The position numbers were made by a program, and so were the translations under genes. The notes under the pieces are model-generated. The model was not told the DNA's origin. It saw only the letters and a list, made by a program, of their open reading frames with translations, and did no database searches. Shown here piece after piece: positions 38,432 to 43,034 of a stretch of 44,517 bases of DNA. The stretch is taken from the sequence record OR594183; one strand, written 5' to 3'. How positions within the stretch are numbered: the first letter of the stretch is position 1; every line of letters begins with the position of its first letter. Origin of the DNA: Escherichia phage vB_EcoM_SHAK7858.

Positions 38432-39181
38432 ATGAGTAACAAAAACGAAGTATTCGAGTACCTGATTGATCAACTACGGCAGCAGGTAAATAAGAAAGAT
38501 GTCACATCTTTCAATGTGTCTGTGCAGATATCCGACCTTGATGAGGTCAAGCAGGTAATTCACAACCTACAGCAGCATATCGCAGGTAAGGATGACGAAA
38601 TACGTGCGCTGAAAGACAGTTTACGGCAGCAGGTAAATAGCAACCAGTGCGAAGACCTGGCGCATGAGGTGCAGTCACTAAAGAATCAGTTACGTGATGC
38701 TTCGGCGCTGGTGGCGGAGTTGCAGGAAGACAACATTAAGAAATCCGACCATATATCACATCTGACCGGGCAATTGTCCGCATATCGCAATGATGCGTTG
38801 CGCTTTCAAGCGCAAGTCGGGGACCTGGTAAAACGACTGGCTAAGGTCACTGGCGACGAGTCTGTGCAGATTAAGGAGTTGACGCTCGCGCTAGATAGTT
38901 TAGATAACGAGGTTATGTGTCTTCGTTCAATCGTTGACCTGGACCCTAAAGGCGCGATTGGGTACATCCGGCGGGCAAATAGTGCAATGACTGACACCCT
39001 GCGCCGCCAATACCTTAGCAAAGCACTTGAGGAACTCGGATGTAAGGATGCGCCAGAACAATCCGGTTGCCGAAAGGAAGACGCTCAACTACCTGTATGC
39101 TCGTGCATTCCGGCTCACTGCGGAACTTACTACGGCAACACTGTAGTCTGTGATAACTGTGGTGGAGCTATAACCGAATGA
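38432..39181 (+). CDS. Coiled-coil protein with C-terminal Cys-rich (zinc-ribbon-like) tail
   Basis: Heptad-like Gln/Leu/Glu-rich N-terminal two-thirds; CSCIPAHCG...CDNCG at the C-terminus; shares a 28-aa motif with the ORF at 41656. Confidence 0.5.
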   Translation: MSNKNEVFEYLIDQLRQQVNKKDVTSFNVSVQISDLDEVKQVIHNLQQHIAGKDDEIRALKDSLRQQVNSNQCEDLAHEVQSLKNQLRDASALVAELQEDNIKKSDHISHLTGQLSAYRNDALRFQAQVGDLVKRLAKVTGDESVQIKELTLALDSLDNEVMCLRSIVDLDPKGAIGYIRRANSAMTDTLRRQYLSKALEELGCKDAPEQSGCRKEDAQLPVCSCIPAHCGTYYGNTVVCDNCGGAITE

Positions 39182-39381
39182 CCAGCATCTTATTTATCTG
39201 GGTATTGTCGGCAGGCCAGATGCAACTAGCGGCATCAGAAACGTTTTACTCGATGGAGGCGTGCCAGTCAGCGGCACGCGCCGCAGAGAACGCGCACTTC
39301 CTGTTTCAGGGCGACAAGCCCAACGATTCAGAGGTACGAGCTATCTGCTCACCTAAGCGACTTGGTAAACAGGAGAAGTGA
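39178..39381 (+). CDS. Hypothetical small protein with signal-peptide-like N-terminus
   Basis: Hydrophobic N-terminal stretch MTSILFIWVLSAGQMQLAASE. Confidence 0.4.
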   Translation: MTSILFIWVLSAGQMQLAASETFYSMEACQSAARAAENAHFLFQGDKPNDSEVRAICSPKRLGKQEK

Positions 39382-39566
39382 TTATGGTGCAGAGATATAC
39401 CTACGACCAGATATTCGGGTTTACTCCTGATGTTGAGGGCGTGTTAGTGCTTTACGAAGATTACGCGAAACTTGAAGCTGAGTTACAGAAATACAAAGAC
39501 CAGTACCCTGATTACGTCGAGTGCGCGAACTGTGGGTCGGTTACACATGTGGAGGGGGTGGAGTGA
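39378..39566 (+). CDS. Hypothetical small protein (62 aa)
   Basis: ORF with CANCG motif. Confidence 0.4.
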   Translation: MIMVQRYTYDQIFGFTPDVEGVLVLYEDYAKLEAELQKYKDQYPDYVECANCGSVTHVEGVE

Positions 39567-40243: not shown

Positions 40244-40508
40244 GTTATTCTGGTTTGGTGGTATGCTCGCAATCGGGAGCACATCGCTGTTTAACGTATA
40301 CCACCCCAGCGTAGATGATGGCCTGTTCGGGCGTGTGCTTTATATTCTGACTGCTATTGTCTGCGCCGCCGGATGTATCCACCTGTTACAGGGCAGCATG
40401 TCACCTACGCTGCCTGAGACATTAATTACATTAGTTGCGCTGCGTCAGATTCGTCAGGCGTGGCTGTCGTACGGAGGACATAAGCGTGTCTCGAAACATT
40501 TCAGATAA
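40236..40508 (+). CDS. Small membrane protein (second holin or antiholin-like component)
   Basis: Two hydrophobic helices; ATGAATGA overlap with the holin stop; SD ggagg. Confidence 0.45.
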   Translation: MNELFWFGGMLAIGSTSLFNVYHPSVDDGLFGRVLYILTAIVCAAGCIHLLQGSMSPTLPETLITLVALRQIRQAWLSYGGHKRVSKHFR

Positions 40509-41001
40509 TGGACTTAGCCATGACTATGTTCGTAGCGTTTTAGAATACAACCCTGACACAGGATTATTCACGTGGCTTAAGACGGTTAGTTCAAAAGCCC
40601 CTAAAGGGACTGTGCCTGACGGGATAGACCCGGACGGGTATAAAGTAATCATGCTCAAAGGTAAATACCTACGGCAACACAGGCTTGCATGGTTTTATAT
40701 GACCGGAGAGTGGCCGATAGGGCAGATAGACCACCGGAACGGGGTAAGAGACGATAATAGGTTTTGTAACCTGAGAGAATGTGATTCGCAGGATAACAAC
40801 CGCAACCGTGGGCTGTCGCGCAACAACACCAGTGGGGTATCAGGAGTCCATAGACAGCAAGGGAAATGGATGGTAAGAATCCGTTTGCAAAAAGGTGTGC
40901 GCAAGTTTTTCGGTTACTTCGATGACCTTGAGTTCGCTGAGTTAGTAGCTAGCGAAGCCCGAGATAAATATCACAAGGAGTTCTCTTTATGCGCTCGATG
41001 A
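40486..41001 (+). CDS. HNH homing endonuclease with AP2-like DNA-binding domain, GTG start
   Basis: QHRLAW...IDHRNG..DDNR..NLRECD..NNRN HNH core followed by GVSGVHRQQGKWMVRIRLQKGVRKFFGYFDD; SD ggagg 8 nt before the GTG. Confidence 0.8.
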   Translation: MSRNISDNGLSHDYVRSVLEYNPDTGLFTWLKTVSSKAPKGTVPDGIDPDGYKVIMLKGKYLRQHRLAWFYMTGEWPIGQIDHRNGVRDDNRFCNLRECDSQDNNRNRGLSRNNTSGVSGVHRQQGKWMVRIRLQKGVRKFFGYFDDLEFAELVASEARDKYHKEFSLCAR

Positions 41002-41474
41002 GTGACAACGGCCTCAAGTTTACTGCGGCTTGGGAAGATTTCCGTGGGACCGCCTACCGCGCGACACCTTCGGAAAAATACTTAACCATAGGCTACGGAA
41101 GCTATGGCCCTCATGTGTATGAAGGACAGACCATCACACCAGGGCAAGGCCTCCTGTTACTGAATCGTGATATGGCTAAAGCCGTTGCTGCGGTCGATGC
41201 GGCAGCACACCATTCGCTTACACAGGCGCAGTTCGACGCTGTGTGTGACCTGGTATACAACGCAGGTGCTGGTGTGATTGCTGCTACTACCGGCACGGGT
41301 AAGGCACTGCGTTCTGGTGATATTGCAACGCTGCGGGCTAAGCTGGCGCTGTTCATCAACCAGAACGGCAAACCGTTACTAGGCCTGCGTCGCCGTACCG
41401 CCGGTCGTCTGGCGCTGTTCGACGGTAAACCGTGGCAAGAGGCAGAGGCTATCGGGCGCGCGGTGAAAGGTTGA
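40989..41474 (+). CDS. Endolysin, lysozyme-type muramidase
   Basis: N-terminal catalytic pattern (E in WEDF, D/T, TIGYG) reminiscent of phage lysozymes; SD aaggag; terminator downstream. Confidence 0.7.
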   Translation: MRSMSDNGLKFTAAWEDFRGTAYRATPSEKYLTIGYGSYGPHVYEGQTITPGQGLLLLNRDMAKAVAAVDAAAHHSLTQAQFDAVCDLVYNAGAGVIAATTGTGKALRSGDIATLRAKLALFINQNGKPLLGLRRRTAGRLALFDGKPWQEAEAIGRAVKG

Positions 41475-41540
41475 CACCTAAGACTAATCCGACGATACTT
41501 AAATCACCTCCTGCTCCATCCCTCTGCTCTCCAGTTTTAT

Positions 41541-41570
41541 CCCGGCCCTGACCCAGCCGGGATTTTTTTT
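41541..41570 (+). terminator. Rho-independent terminator after the endolysin gene
   Basis: cccggc-cctgaccca-gccggg followed by a T8 run. Confidence 0.7.
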
Positions 41571-41592
41571 ATCTATTTTCTGTGATGACTAG

Positions 41593-41621
41593 TTGACTAT
41601 TATCCTCGACCCTATTATATT
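41593..41621 (+). promoter_or_regulatory. Sigma70-like promoter (TTGACT-N17-TATATT) carrying two CTATTAT half-sites
   Basis: Hexamers and spacing; followed by an acaacgagaacggag leader. Confidence 0.45.
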
Positions 41622-41655
41622 TACTTCATCGACAACGAGAACGGAGTAGAGAGAA

Positions 41656-41856
41656 ATGGGCAACGTATCGACGATAGAAATAACCGAAGAACTCGAAGTT
41701 AAATGTATCGCATCAGCTATAATAGGGAATGGTTCGGTGGAAAAACTACAGATGAGGGCTGCTGCGGGCTACATACGCAGGGCTAATAGCGCGCAGACTG
41801 ATGTTTTACGTAAACGTTACCCCGTGAAAGCGTTAGAAATACTGGAGAATAACTAA
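41656..41856 (+). CDS. Hypothetical protein (66 aa) sharing a motif with the 38432 ORF
   Basis: GYIRRANSAQTDVLRKRYPVKALE matches GYIRRANSAMTDTLRRQYLSKALE. Confidence 0.45.
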   Translation: MGNVSTIEITEELEVKCIASAIIGNGSVEKLQMRAAAGYIRRANSAQTDVLRKRYPVKALEILENN

Positions 41857-42005
41857 TGAAAATCACAGATATCGAAGCATTCAAAGACGCGCAACTGATG
41901 GCGCGCATCGCAGTTAGTAACCTGAGCAACAGCATTCCTGCGGGCGCGTTCTGGTTCGCTGCTATGCAGACACTTAAAGCAGCTTATGCAGGAGAGAAGA
42001 AATGA
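41856..42005 (+). CDS. Hypothetical protein (49 aa, below the ORF-track cutoff)
   Basis: Uninterrupted frame with TAATG and ATGA coupling to both neighbours. Confidence 0.35.
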   Translation: MKITDIEAFKDAQLMARIAVSNLSNSIPAGAFWFAAMQTLKAAYAGEKK

Positions 42006-42354: not shown

Positions 42355-42575
42355 CTAATAACGAATATGAAAAAGCATGCGTCGAATCCGCGACCGGTGA
42401 ATCTGAAATAGCGTGGATTGACACCCACATCGAACACCACTTACGGCAGGTGGATAATCTTATGGAACGCCGCCGTGAGCTGATTAGCCGCTTCAACATG
42501 AACAAGGGGCGCGCTATTTCTGACGATTTCGATGGGGATTACCGAAATGGCGATTTTTATGAGGGAGCCGAATAA
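42351..42575 (+). CDS. Hypothetical protein (74 aa)
   Basis: ORF, translationally coupled. Confidence 0.45.
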   Translation: MTNNEYEKACVESATGESEIAWIDTHIEHHLRQVDNLMERRRELISRFNMNKGRAISDDFDGDYRNGDFYEGAE

Positions 42576-42865
42576 TGCCTAAAATCACAATCGCGTCACT
42601 TGAGCGTCGTATTCTGGTCCTTGAGTCAGAGAAACAGACGTTAGGCGGGCAACTGTCAATTAACGGTGAGTTTCAACTGGAGGCGTTTAAGGAGTTACTG
42701 GCTATTAAGACGCAAGAACCGAACGTGTACGCGGGGTTGTTCGTCGGTGAAGACAGTTCTTCGCTGGCTTATTACAACACGGCAACCGCAGCTTCAAAGG
42801 ATGGGGCTGATGTGATAATCCCGCTGTACGACAATGTTGTCGGACCAGAAGATGAAAGCGCCTGA
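42575..42865 (+). CDS. Hypothetical protein (96 aa)
   Basis: ORF, translationally coupled. Confidence 0.45.
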   Translation: MPKITIASLERRILVLESEKQTLGGQLSINGEFQLEAFKELLAIKTQEPNVYAGLFVGEDSSSLAYYNTATAASKDGADVIIPLYDNVVGPEDESA

Positions 42866-43034
42866 ACCGGTAGTTATTGATGGCGTCCTGTGGAAACCAT
42901 ACTCGGTTAACCACATCGACGCCGACGGGAAGAAGTTCAGCTTCTACATTTTTGCAATTAGCCGTGAGCATGCTGCCTGTGTGGTCGATGATATACGAGA
43001 AACGGCGTGGCTCGGTGATGAGATAGTGGGGTAA
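42852..43034 (+). CDS. Hypothetical protein (60 aa)
   Basis: ORF; start chosen at an internal ATG of the track ORF. Confidence 0.35.
   Translation: MKAPEPVVIDGVLWKPYSVNHIDADGKKFSFYIFAISREHAACVVDDIRETAWLGDEIVG

What the first reader, a model, noticed from the sequence alone, without database searches (positions are those of the whole stretch)
38951..39034. A 28-residue motif shared by two otherwise unrelated proteins
GAIGYIRRANSAMTDTLRRQYLSKALEEL in the 249-aa coiled-coil protein matches AAGYIRRANSAQTDVLRKRYPVKALEILE in the 66-aa protein at 41656-41856 (residues about 35-62, nt 41758-41841). The DNA is diverged while the peptide is conserved, pointing to a functional module, possibly an interaction or DNA-binding helix pair, reused in two genes.
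Basis: seen in the sequence. Interest (0 to 1): 0.4.

Follow-up and report, generated by a model that had tools for sequence, protein, structure and literature searches.

The report
Small helical domain shared by two phage genes
Two genes of this E. coli phage (a Kagunavirus relative) share an old, duplicated domain of three short helices whose function is unknown; the match is real, but it is ordinary domain shuffling in mosaic accessory genes.

Summary
The 249-aa ORF (38432-39181, "A") and the 66-aa ORF (41656-41856, "B") share a significant match: 50% identity over 50 residues, pairwise E = 9e-12. It is the only paralogous pair among 297 ORFs in the window. The homology is longer than the 28 flagged residues. 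It covers a predicted unit of three helices that makes up nearly all of B. Synonymous sites between the two copies are saturated, so the duplication is old and the conservation acts on the protein.

The window is a complete genome of a Kagunavirus-like (Guernseyvirinae) phage. A belongs to a highly mosaic family: a conserved N-terminal coiled coil, optional in-frame cassettes (this module is one), a PEQSGCRKED linker, and swappable C-terminal zinc ribbons. B sits behind its own terminator and promoter-like site, downstream of the endolysin gene.

A profile search of 1.84 billion protein clusters found the module only in these two families. It is accessory. It occurs in A only, B only, both or neither, so the two copies do not need each other.

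No Pfam, PDB or Foldseek relative exists, and nothing supports a helix-turn-helix. Function is inferred only: probably a small ligand-binding domain in accessory proteins that may act on the host. The window's B copy carries a private L56P change in helix 3.

The parts
38432..39181 (+). Gene A, 249 aa: a mosaic coiled-coil / zinc-ribbon protein (phrog_6094, function unknown).
   Evidence: ORF list. phrog_6094 match, E = 1.8e-26. 51 homologous protein clusters with cassette-like architecture. AF2 model: long helix 33-140, helices 145-168, 172-183 and 188-201, disordered 208-221, short strands 231-248.
38909..39037 (+). Shared module in A (residues 160-202): the end of the coiled-coil helix (EVMCLRSIV), a turn, helix AIGYIRRAN, the SAMT loop, then helix DTLRRQYLSKALEE.
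   Evidence: BLASTP. AF2 pLDDT is 85-92 for residues 171-200. The module is present in some A-family members and absent in others.
38951..39034 (+).
38475..38639 (+). A perfect 18-bp direct repeat (TACGGCAGCAGGTAAATA, encoding LRQQVN) at 38475-38492 and 38622-38639. It brackets a 147-nt (49-codon) in-frame insertion that most A homologues lack.
   Evidence: the repeat finder family D3. Alignment A4 shows the insertion in the window protein only among the rows displayed. The same insertion is in L005.
39056..39082 (+). Conserved linker EQSGCRKED, which precedes the C-terminal zinc-ribbon cassette in all A-family architectures.
   Evidence: Motif scan. Family sequences.
39098..39160 (+). C-terminal Cys-rich zinc-ribbon-like cassette, CSCIPAHCG...CDNCG (residues 223-243). 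Relatives carry one or two CEHxW...CxxCG ribbons here instead.
   Evidence: Sequences. Beta strands 231-248 in the AF2 model. Metal binding is inferred only.
41539..41572 (+). Intrinsic-terminator-like hairpin (8-bp stem AUCCCGGC/GCCGGGAU followed by U8) after the endolysin gene.
   Evidence: Sequence. RNA fold -13.8 kcal/mol, z = -3.3.
41593..41621 (+). Sigma-70-like promoter match, TTGACT-17-TATATT, 35 nt upstream of B. A GGAG Shine-Dalgarno lies at 41643-41646.
   Evidence: This is a consensus match only: the number of such matches in the region is not above the shuffled controls. It is identical in relatives.
41656..41856 (+). Gene B, 66 aa: a free-standing copy of the module, with three predicted helices (11-23, 27-45, 49-65).
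   Evidence: Orthologues occur in 27 GenBank Guernseyvirinae records, including Salmonella phages at 65% identity, in the same position after the lysin gene.
41695..41844 (+). Shared module in B (residues 14-63).
41822..41822 (+). Private T-to-C change (CTC to CCC, L56P) in helix 3 of B. This position is Leu in the other A and B family members compared.
   Evidence: DNA alignment. Family sequences. The column is over 90% Leu.
41856..42005 (+). Next gene (49 aa, phrog_2180). Its ATG overlaps B's stop codon (TAATG). In phage DUEC01 the N-terminus of B is fused in frame to this gene and the module is deleted.

Best explanation
Shown: the similarity is true homology. A domain of about 45-50 residues, predicted as three short helices, exists in this phage in two forms. 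The flagged 28 residues are its helix 2, loop and helix 3. In gene A it is an optional in-frame cassette between the dimer-type coiled coil and the zinc ribbon. In gene B it is essentially the whole folded part of a 66-aa protein, with its own terminator, promoter-like site and RBS downstream of the lysis genes. The duplication is old. Synonymous sites are saturated. Both the A-type (LRR..AL[E/A]EL) and the B-type (LRK..ALEIL) occur in E. coli phages and in Salmonella phages. Each copy is under purifying selection. The domain is confined to Guernseyvirinae, is accessory, and is gained or lost independently in A and B. Inferred: the invariant Y, I, A and L positions form the core of the little bundle. 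The invariant or near-invariant R-R...R residues around the N-S-A-x-T-D loop form an exposed patch that binds one common ligand, most likely a host or core phage protein. B would present the domain as a monomeric small protein. A would present it on a coiled-coil stalk next to exchangeable zinc ribbons. The sharing arose by recombination-driven cassette shuffling among accessory genes. The two proteins do not need to act together.
For: Significance and uniqueness of the match. Selection on the protein: nucleotide identity 54% and pS saturated against pN 0.29 between A and B; within families, dN/dS is about 0.18-0.38 for the A core, and dN is 0.14 with saturated dS for B between E. coli and Salmonella phages. 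Predicted structure: the same helix-loop-helix in both, pLDDT 85-92 in A and 81-84 in B, with B as a three-helix unit at pTM 0.60. Restricted distribution: a profile search of 1.84e9 cluster representatives gave 7 hits; 6 are A- or B-type proteins and 1 is a spurious repeat protein. Cassette nature: A homologues with and without the module, joined at AQIKEL and PEQSGCRKED; an 18-bp repeat brackets another cassette; the module is deleted from B in DUEC01; the B slot holds a different 25-aa ORF in L018 and L027. Independence: 28 GenBank records carry the module, 27 in B and 1 in A, none in both. Among metagenomic and IMG/VR genomes, 2 have both, 2 have A only and 4 have B only. No other window gene tracks the module across 12 genomes, apart from a B-linked neighbour (42575-42865), the common ORF 39378-39566 and spurious overlapping-frame ORFs.
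Against: No experiment and no annotated homologue bears on function. The ligand-binding role rests only on conservation pattern and context. The AF2 models have moderate confidence (B: mean pLDDT 74). The BFVD model of a 94%-identical orthologue superposes at only TM 0.62, rmsd 6.4 A, so the helix packing is uncertain. I had no model coordinates, so core versus surface assignment comes from helical periodicity and was not measured. The module is absent from over 90% of related phages, and B carries L56P here, so its contribution to fitness may be small. The co-occurrence test used only 12 genomes that are phylogenetically confounded.
Confidence: 0.55

Rival explanations
1. The module is a small nucleic-acid-binding domain of helix-turn-helix type. 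A and B would be DNA- or RNA-binding regulators that recognise the same site.
For: The unit has three helices, with conserved basic residues (RR, R, K/R) on helix 2 and helix 3. A also has zinc ribbons, which often bind nucleic acids. B is the first gene behind a promoter-like site.
Against: Neither protein matches any HTH family in Pfam or NCBIfam, even at E = 1. The profile search against PDB sequences gave nothing below E = 0.9. The Foldseek hits are up-down designed bundles, not HTH proteins, all at E above 1. The helix 2-helix 3 connection is a 4-residue capping loop rather than a classical glycine turn. The net charge of B is about neutral.
Confidence: 0.15
2. The shared module is a self-association interface. 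B docks onto A's module, for example as an antagonist or regulator of A, so the two genes form one system.
For: Paralogous helical domains often heterodimerise. Both copies are in the window and in two metagenomic genomes. Both genes are transcribed in the same direction.
Against: Most carriers have only one copy: 27 GenBank records have B only and 1 has A only, and metagenomic genomes include both A-only and B-only cases. Neither copy therefore needs the other. No multimer prediction could be run.
Confidence: 0.1
3. B is a decaying fragment left by a partial duplication or illegitimate recombination of an A-like gene. The similarity is then a relic with no present function.
For: B is missing from most Guernseyvirinae. 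It is deletion-fused in DUEC01, replaced by another ORF in L018 and L027, and carries a probably destabilising L56P in the window.
Against: The B reading frame is intact in 27 GenBank records. These span E. coli and Salmonella phages, with saturated synonymous divergence but only 0.14 non-synonymous divergence. The invariant positions are the same as in A. B has its own RBS and promoter-like site, and its stop codon overlaps the start of the next gene.
Confidence: 0.1
4. The similarity between the two peptides arose by chance.
For: The 9-mer GYIRRANSA alone is not unique. A degenerate DNA pattern for it also hits unrelated metagenomic sequences.
Against: Pairwise E = 9e-12 over 50 residues. 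It is the only pair among 297 ORFs. Database hits are reciprocal. The predicted secondary structure is the same.
Confidence: 0.01

Closest known systems
PHROG family phrog_6094 (unknown function), the family that holds gene A
   Same: Gene A matches at E = 1.8e-26. It is the same coiled-coil plus Cys-rich C-terminus protein found in Guernseyvirinae phages.
   Different: The family has no assigned function. The module is only an optional insert within it, and gene B is not in this family. B's best PHROG hit is phrog_4360 at E = 0.054, which is not significant.
Generic small three-helix-bundle protein-binding domains (for example designed mini-binders, staphylococcal complement inhibitor 2qff, anti-CRISPR AcrIF25 8jdh)
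   Same: Similar size (about 55 residues) and up-down-up helical topology. Foldseek TM is 0.5-0.69.
   Different: All E-values are above 1 and sequence identity is at most about 20%. This is resemblance in topology only and gives no evidence of common descent or function.
Helix-turn-helix DNA-binding domains
   Same: Three short helices with basic residues on the last two.
   Different: No profile match and no structural match.
Intragenic mosaicism in phage accessory genes, such as the variable ea22-type coiled-coil genes of lambdoid phages and module exchange at short conserved boundary sequences (from my own knowledge, not tested here)
   Same: Gene A is built from interchangeable in-frame cassettes joined at short conserved junctions: LRQQVN (an 18-bp perfect repeat), AQIKEL and PEQSGCRKED.
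   Different: No sequence relationship to ea22 was tested. Here one cassette also exists as a separate gene 2.8 kb away.
E. coli ZapB (coiled-coil cell-division protein, PDB 2jee)
   Same: The N-terminus of A (NEVFEYLIDQLRQQV) resembles the ZapB N-terminus (LEVFEKLEAKVQQA). One GenBank record under an A-gene match is annotated 'cell division protein' (H83).
   Different: BLASTP E = 0.079. hhalign probability is 10.8%. I rejected this as ordinary coiled-coil similarity, and it does not concern the shared module.

Membership tests
Paralogous domain (common descent of the A and B segments) | Statistically significant sequence alignment | tested here: met
   E = 9e-12 pairwise. E = 3.8e-9 among all window ORFs. 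Reciprocal tblastn hits in 2.3 Gb of phage DNA.
Paralogous domain (common descent of the A and B segments) | Same predicted secondary and tertiary structure | tested here: inconclusive
   The helix-loop-helix boundaries agree in both AF2 models. I had no coordinates to superpose, and the models have moderate confidence.
Paralogous domain (common descent of the A and B segments) | Conservation maintained at protein level rather than at DNA level | tested here: met
   Synonymous sites are saturated and pN is 0.29. No DNA repeat between the two loci was detected at seed 8.
Helix-turn-helix DNA-binding domains | Profile match to an HTH family | tested here: not met
   B has no Pfam or NCBIfam hit at E up to 1. 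A has only coiled-coil noise.
Helix-turn-helix DNA-binding domains | HTH geometry, or a structural neighbour that is an HTH protein | tested here: not met
   Foldseek against PDB and BFVD finds no HTH protein. The best matches are designed bundles at E above 1. Caveat: the model has moderate confidence.
Helix-turn-helix DNA-binding domains | Sequence-specific DNA binding | not testable with these tools
   This needs EMSA, ChIP or similar experiments.
phrog_6094 | Profile match of gene A | tested here: met
   E = 1.8e-26 over residues 60-245.
ZapB-like coiled coil | Profile-level similarity to ZapB | tested here: not met
   hhalign probability 10.8%. BLASTP E = 0.079.
Zinc ribbon (C-terminus of A) | Two Cys knuckles (CxC/CxxC) on beta hairpins | tested here: inconclusive
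   The motif C223-x-C225...H229-C230...C240-x-x-C243 is present, with short strands 231-248 at pLDDT about 71-76. There is no profile hit above threshold (zf-C2HC_3, E = 0.07).

The most novel reading that the evidence does not exclude
Gene A and the B slot might form a combinatorial 'domain cassette' system. Short conserved junction sequences would act as recombination joints: the 18-bp LRQQVN repeat, AQIKEL, PEQSGCRKED and CxNCG. These joints would let Guernseyvirinae phages swap small binding domains and zinc ribbons in frame, within one gene and between genes. The phages would thereby diversify a host-targeting or anti-defence effector. The GYIRRANSA domain would be one such cassette caught in two locations.
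Probability: 0.2. Interest if true: 0.5.

Novelty: new member of a known kind. Interest (0 to 1): 0.25.

Why it matters
The result defines a previously undescribed small helical domain with no Pfam, PDB or significant PHROG match for the module itself. The domain is restricted to Guernseyvirinae phages and is used both as a free-standing protein and as a cassette in a very mosaic coiled-coil / zinc-ribbon protein. This is useful for annotation: the two 'hypothetical proteins' can now be linked. It also marks gene A as a recombination hotspot that may encode a variable host-interaction factor in phages being developed for therapy. Conceptually it is ordinary domain duplication and shuffling, and nothing here opens a long-standing question.

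Tried and rejected
(1) Known families. Pfam, PHROGs and NCBIfam scans of A, B and five relatives gave only coiled-coil noise and phrog_6094.

(2) Solved structures. phmmer and profile searches against PDB sequences gave nothing for B or for the module.

(3) Structure search. The B model against PDB and BFVD found only its own orthologue and generic bundles.

(4) Distant relatives. An exhaustive HMMER profile search of 1.84e9 clusters found no relatives outside the two families. A profile-driven scan of IMG/VR failed. It was replaced by a degenerate DNA pattern, which worked but also returned unrelated hits.

(5) ZapB mimicry by the N-terminus of A: rejected.

(6) A phage-encoded partner inferred from co-occurrence. 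I ran tblastn with all window ORFs against 12 genomes (7 with the module, 5 without). Besides B itself, the ORFs that passed the enrichment filter were a linked neighbour (42575-42865), ORF 39378-39566 (also present in the module-negative DUEC01) and two spurious overlapping-frame ORFs. No gene tracks the module. This is a weak negative because the sample is small and confounded.

(7) An obligate A-B pairing: rejected by the census.

(8) Literature. The Kagunavirus papers, including BASEL phages Bas70-76 and the K1B4 transcriptome, say nothing about these genes. None of the BASEL Kagunavirus records carries the module.

(9) The GenBank annotation 'RNA polymerase inhibitor, similar to 2LMC_A' on the homologue of window 42834-43034 could not be reproduced by sequence search.

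Full report
**What the window is.** The region 38000-42400 matches 399 phage records in megablast. Almost all are Escherichia and Salmonella Guernseyvirinae (Kagunavirus, Jerseyvirus). The best hits are about 94% identical but cover at most 77% of the query. At 44.5 kb, with terminase, structural, replication and lysis genes, the window is a complete Kagunavirus-like genome.

The flagged genes lie on the rightward arm. From about 36 kb it holds small ORFs, then gene A (38432-39181), more small ORFs, two holins, an HNH endonuclease and the endolysin (40989-41474). After a gap of about 180 nt come gene B (41656-41856) and further small ORFs towards the terminase genes.

**Checking the observation.**
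- BLASTP aligns A residues 160-202 with B residues 14-63: 25/50 identical, E = 9e-12.
- Among all 297 ORFs of at least 40 aa in six frames, this is the only pair with E below 1e-3.
- At database scale, B used as a tblastn query finds the A homologue of phage EP-B-K_E2 (E = 9e-5). A finds B genes (5e-4 to 7e-5).
- At the DNA level the copies are 54% identical over 38 aligned codons, and synonymous sites are saturated while pN is 0.29. By my count from those codons, only 8 of 24 identical residues use the same codon.
- No DNA repeat links the two loci.

So the match is real, it is old, and it is kept at the protein level.

**Anatomy of the module.** AlphaFold2 with family alignments predicts the following.
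- A has one long helix (33-140), then helices 145-168, 172-183 and 188-201 with pLDDT 85-92 over residues 171-200. A disordered stretch (208-221) and short strands (231-248) follow in the Cys-rich tail.
- B has three helices (11-23, 27-45, 49-65), mean pLDDT 74 and pTM 0.60.
- The flagged 28 residues are helix 2, the loop N-S-A-x-T-D and helix 3. The homology also covers helix 1 (EVMCLRSIV in A, EVKCIASAI in B).
- The invariant columns across both families are E, C, G-Y-I-R, A-N-S-A, Y, A-L and L. R42, R52 and L56 (B numbering) are over 90% conserved.
- By helical periodicity, Y/I/A and L/Y/A/L/L form the core and the arginines are exposed. This is inference, because I had no coordinates.

**Gene A is a cassette mosaic.** The 51 homologous clusters share an N-terminal coiled coil (MSNKNEVFEYLIDQLRQQV...CEDLAHEVQSLKNQLRDAS). 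After it they differ by whole in-frame blocks: extra coiled-coil segments, the GYIRRANSA module or unrelated fillers, a conserved PEQSGCRKED linker, and one or two interchangeable zinc-ribbon-like units (CEHxW...CxxCG, or CSCxPAHCG...CDNCG as here).

The window's version is the longest. It carries a 49-codon insertion bracketed by a perfect 18-bp direct repeat that encodes LRQQVN. P0030 has helices 2 and 3 of the module without helix 1, so the flagged helix pair is the conserved core. P0078, which resembles the A-type gene of Salmonella phage GRNsp27, has a different N-terminal domain but the same module.

**Gene B is an optional free-standing copy.**
- Orthologues occur in 27 GenBank records, in E. 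coli, Shigella and Salmonella phages. The Salmonella ones are 65% identical. Where the flanks were inspected (for example GRNsp27, 22664BS2 and fEg-Eco06), B lies just after the lysin gene.
- B is preceded by a terminator-like hairpin with a U8 tail, a TTGACT-17-TATATT match and a GGAG ribosome-binding site. Its stop codon overlaps the next start codon.
- In DUEC01 the module is deleted and the N-terminus of B is fused to the next gene.
- In two metagenomic genomes whose A gene carries the module, the B slot holds a different 25-aa ORF.

**Distribution.** A profile of the module searched against 1.84 billion cluster representatives returned 7 hits. Six are A- or B-type proteins and one is a spurious repeat protein.

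| Source | Both A and B | A only | B only |
|---|---|---|---|
| GenBank phages: 28 records carry the module | 0 | 1 | 27 |
| Metagenomes and IMG/VR, besides the window | 2 | 2 | 4 |

- DUEC01 and SE479 carry no module, and most of the roughly 400 related records have none.
- Both Salmonella-phage and E. coli-phage versions keep type-specific residues: LRK..ALEIL in B and LRR..AL[E/A]EL in A. The A/B split therefore predates that divergence.
- Within families the core evolves under purifying selection.

**Function.** No library gives a lead.
- Pfam, NCBIfam and PDB sequence searches found nothing for the module.
- Foldseek returns B's own orthologue and generic or designed three-helix bundles at E above 1, with no helix-turn-helix proteins.
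- A small co-occurrence test over 12 genomes found no phage gene that tracks the module.

I therefore commit, with moderate to low confidence, to this reading. The module is a small ligand-binding domain, probably protein-binding. B would display it as a free-standing protein. A would display it on a coiled-coil stalk next to variable zinc ribbons. The two copies act independently. The sharing is a product of cassette shuffling among accessory genes, which possibly interact with the host.

The helix-turn-helix, A-B docking and decaying-fragment alternatives are listed with their tests. Chance is excluded.

**A detail specific to this window.** The B gene and its promoter region are identical in DNA to those of phage 22664BS2 and to an IMG/VR contig, except for one T-to-C change at 41822. 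It turns the otherwise invariant Leu56 of helix 3 into Pro. This is either a sequencing error or a probably destabilising private mutation.

**Verdict.** It is an uncharacterised, lineage-restricted domain in mosaic phage accessory genes: a new member of a familiar kind of phenomenon, and of modest interest.

Noticed in passing
window 41822: The window's B gene has a private CTC-to-CCC change (L56P) in helix 3. This position is Leu in the other A and B homologues compared, while the surrounding 270 nt are identical to two relatives. It is a sequencing error or a crippling mutation.
   Followed up: yes
window 38475-38492 and 38622-38639: A perfect 18-bp direct repeat (encoding LRQQVN) brackets a 147-nt in-frame insertion in gene A that most homologues lack. 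This suggests cassette gain or loss by recombination at short repeats.
   Followed up: partly
window 40435-41001: An HNH endonuclease ORF (Pfam HNH_3, E = 2e-12) sits between the second holin and the endolysin and overlaps both. It is annotated as 'HNH homing endonuclease' in DUEC01. The other top hits list no HNH gene under the match, so it looks like a homing endonuclease inserted in the lysis cassette.
   Followed up: partly
L008 12854-13555 and L019 (ERZ1031020 NODE-113): In these contigs gene A's zinc ribbon is fused at CDNCG to the C-terminus (SVTHVEGVE) of the homologue of window ORF 39378-39566. The intervening DNA is deleted, apparently through the shared C(D/A)NCG coding sequence.
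   Followed up: no
L001 4939-5187 (phage DUEC01): The N-terminal 30 residues of B are fused in frame to the homologue of window gene 41856-42005. This is a deletion of the shared module.
   Followed up: yes
window 42834-43034: This 66-aa ORF is 97% identical to fEg-Eco06 g016, which GenBank annotates as 'RNA polymerase inhibitor, similar to 2LMC_A' (T7 Gp2). phmmer against PDB and a Pfam scan did not reproduce the link, so it remains an unverified lead that the operon starting at B includes host-takeover genes.
   Followed up: partly
L004 4016-4705 (ZCEC5), L033 500-979, P0076: Some gene A variants carry an extra Trp/Cys-rich cassette of about 55 residues (for example ...W.ECDGYGACPVP...DIVAYR). 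This is another swappable module at the PEQSGCRKED junctions.
   Followed up: no
window 41539-41621: A strong terminator-like hairpin with U8 is followed immediately by a near-consensus -35/-10 pair between the endolysin gene and gene B. The promoter-like site and the start of B are identical or nearly identical in three relatives (which starts at 41590). This is probably a transcription-unit boundary.
   Followed up: partly
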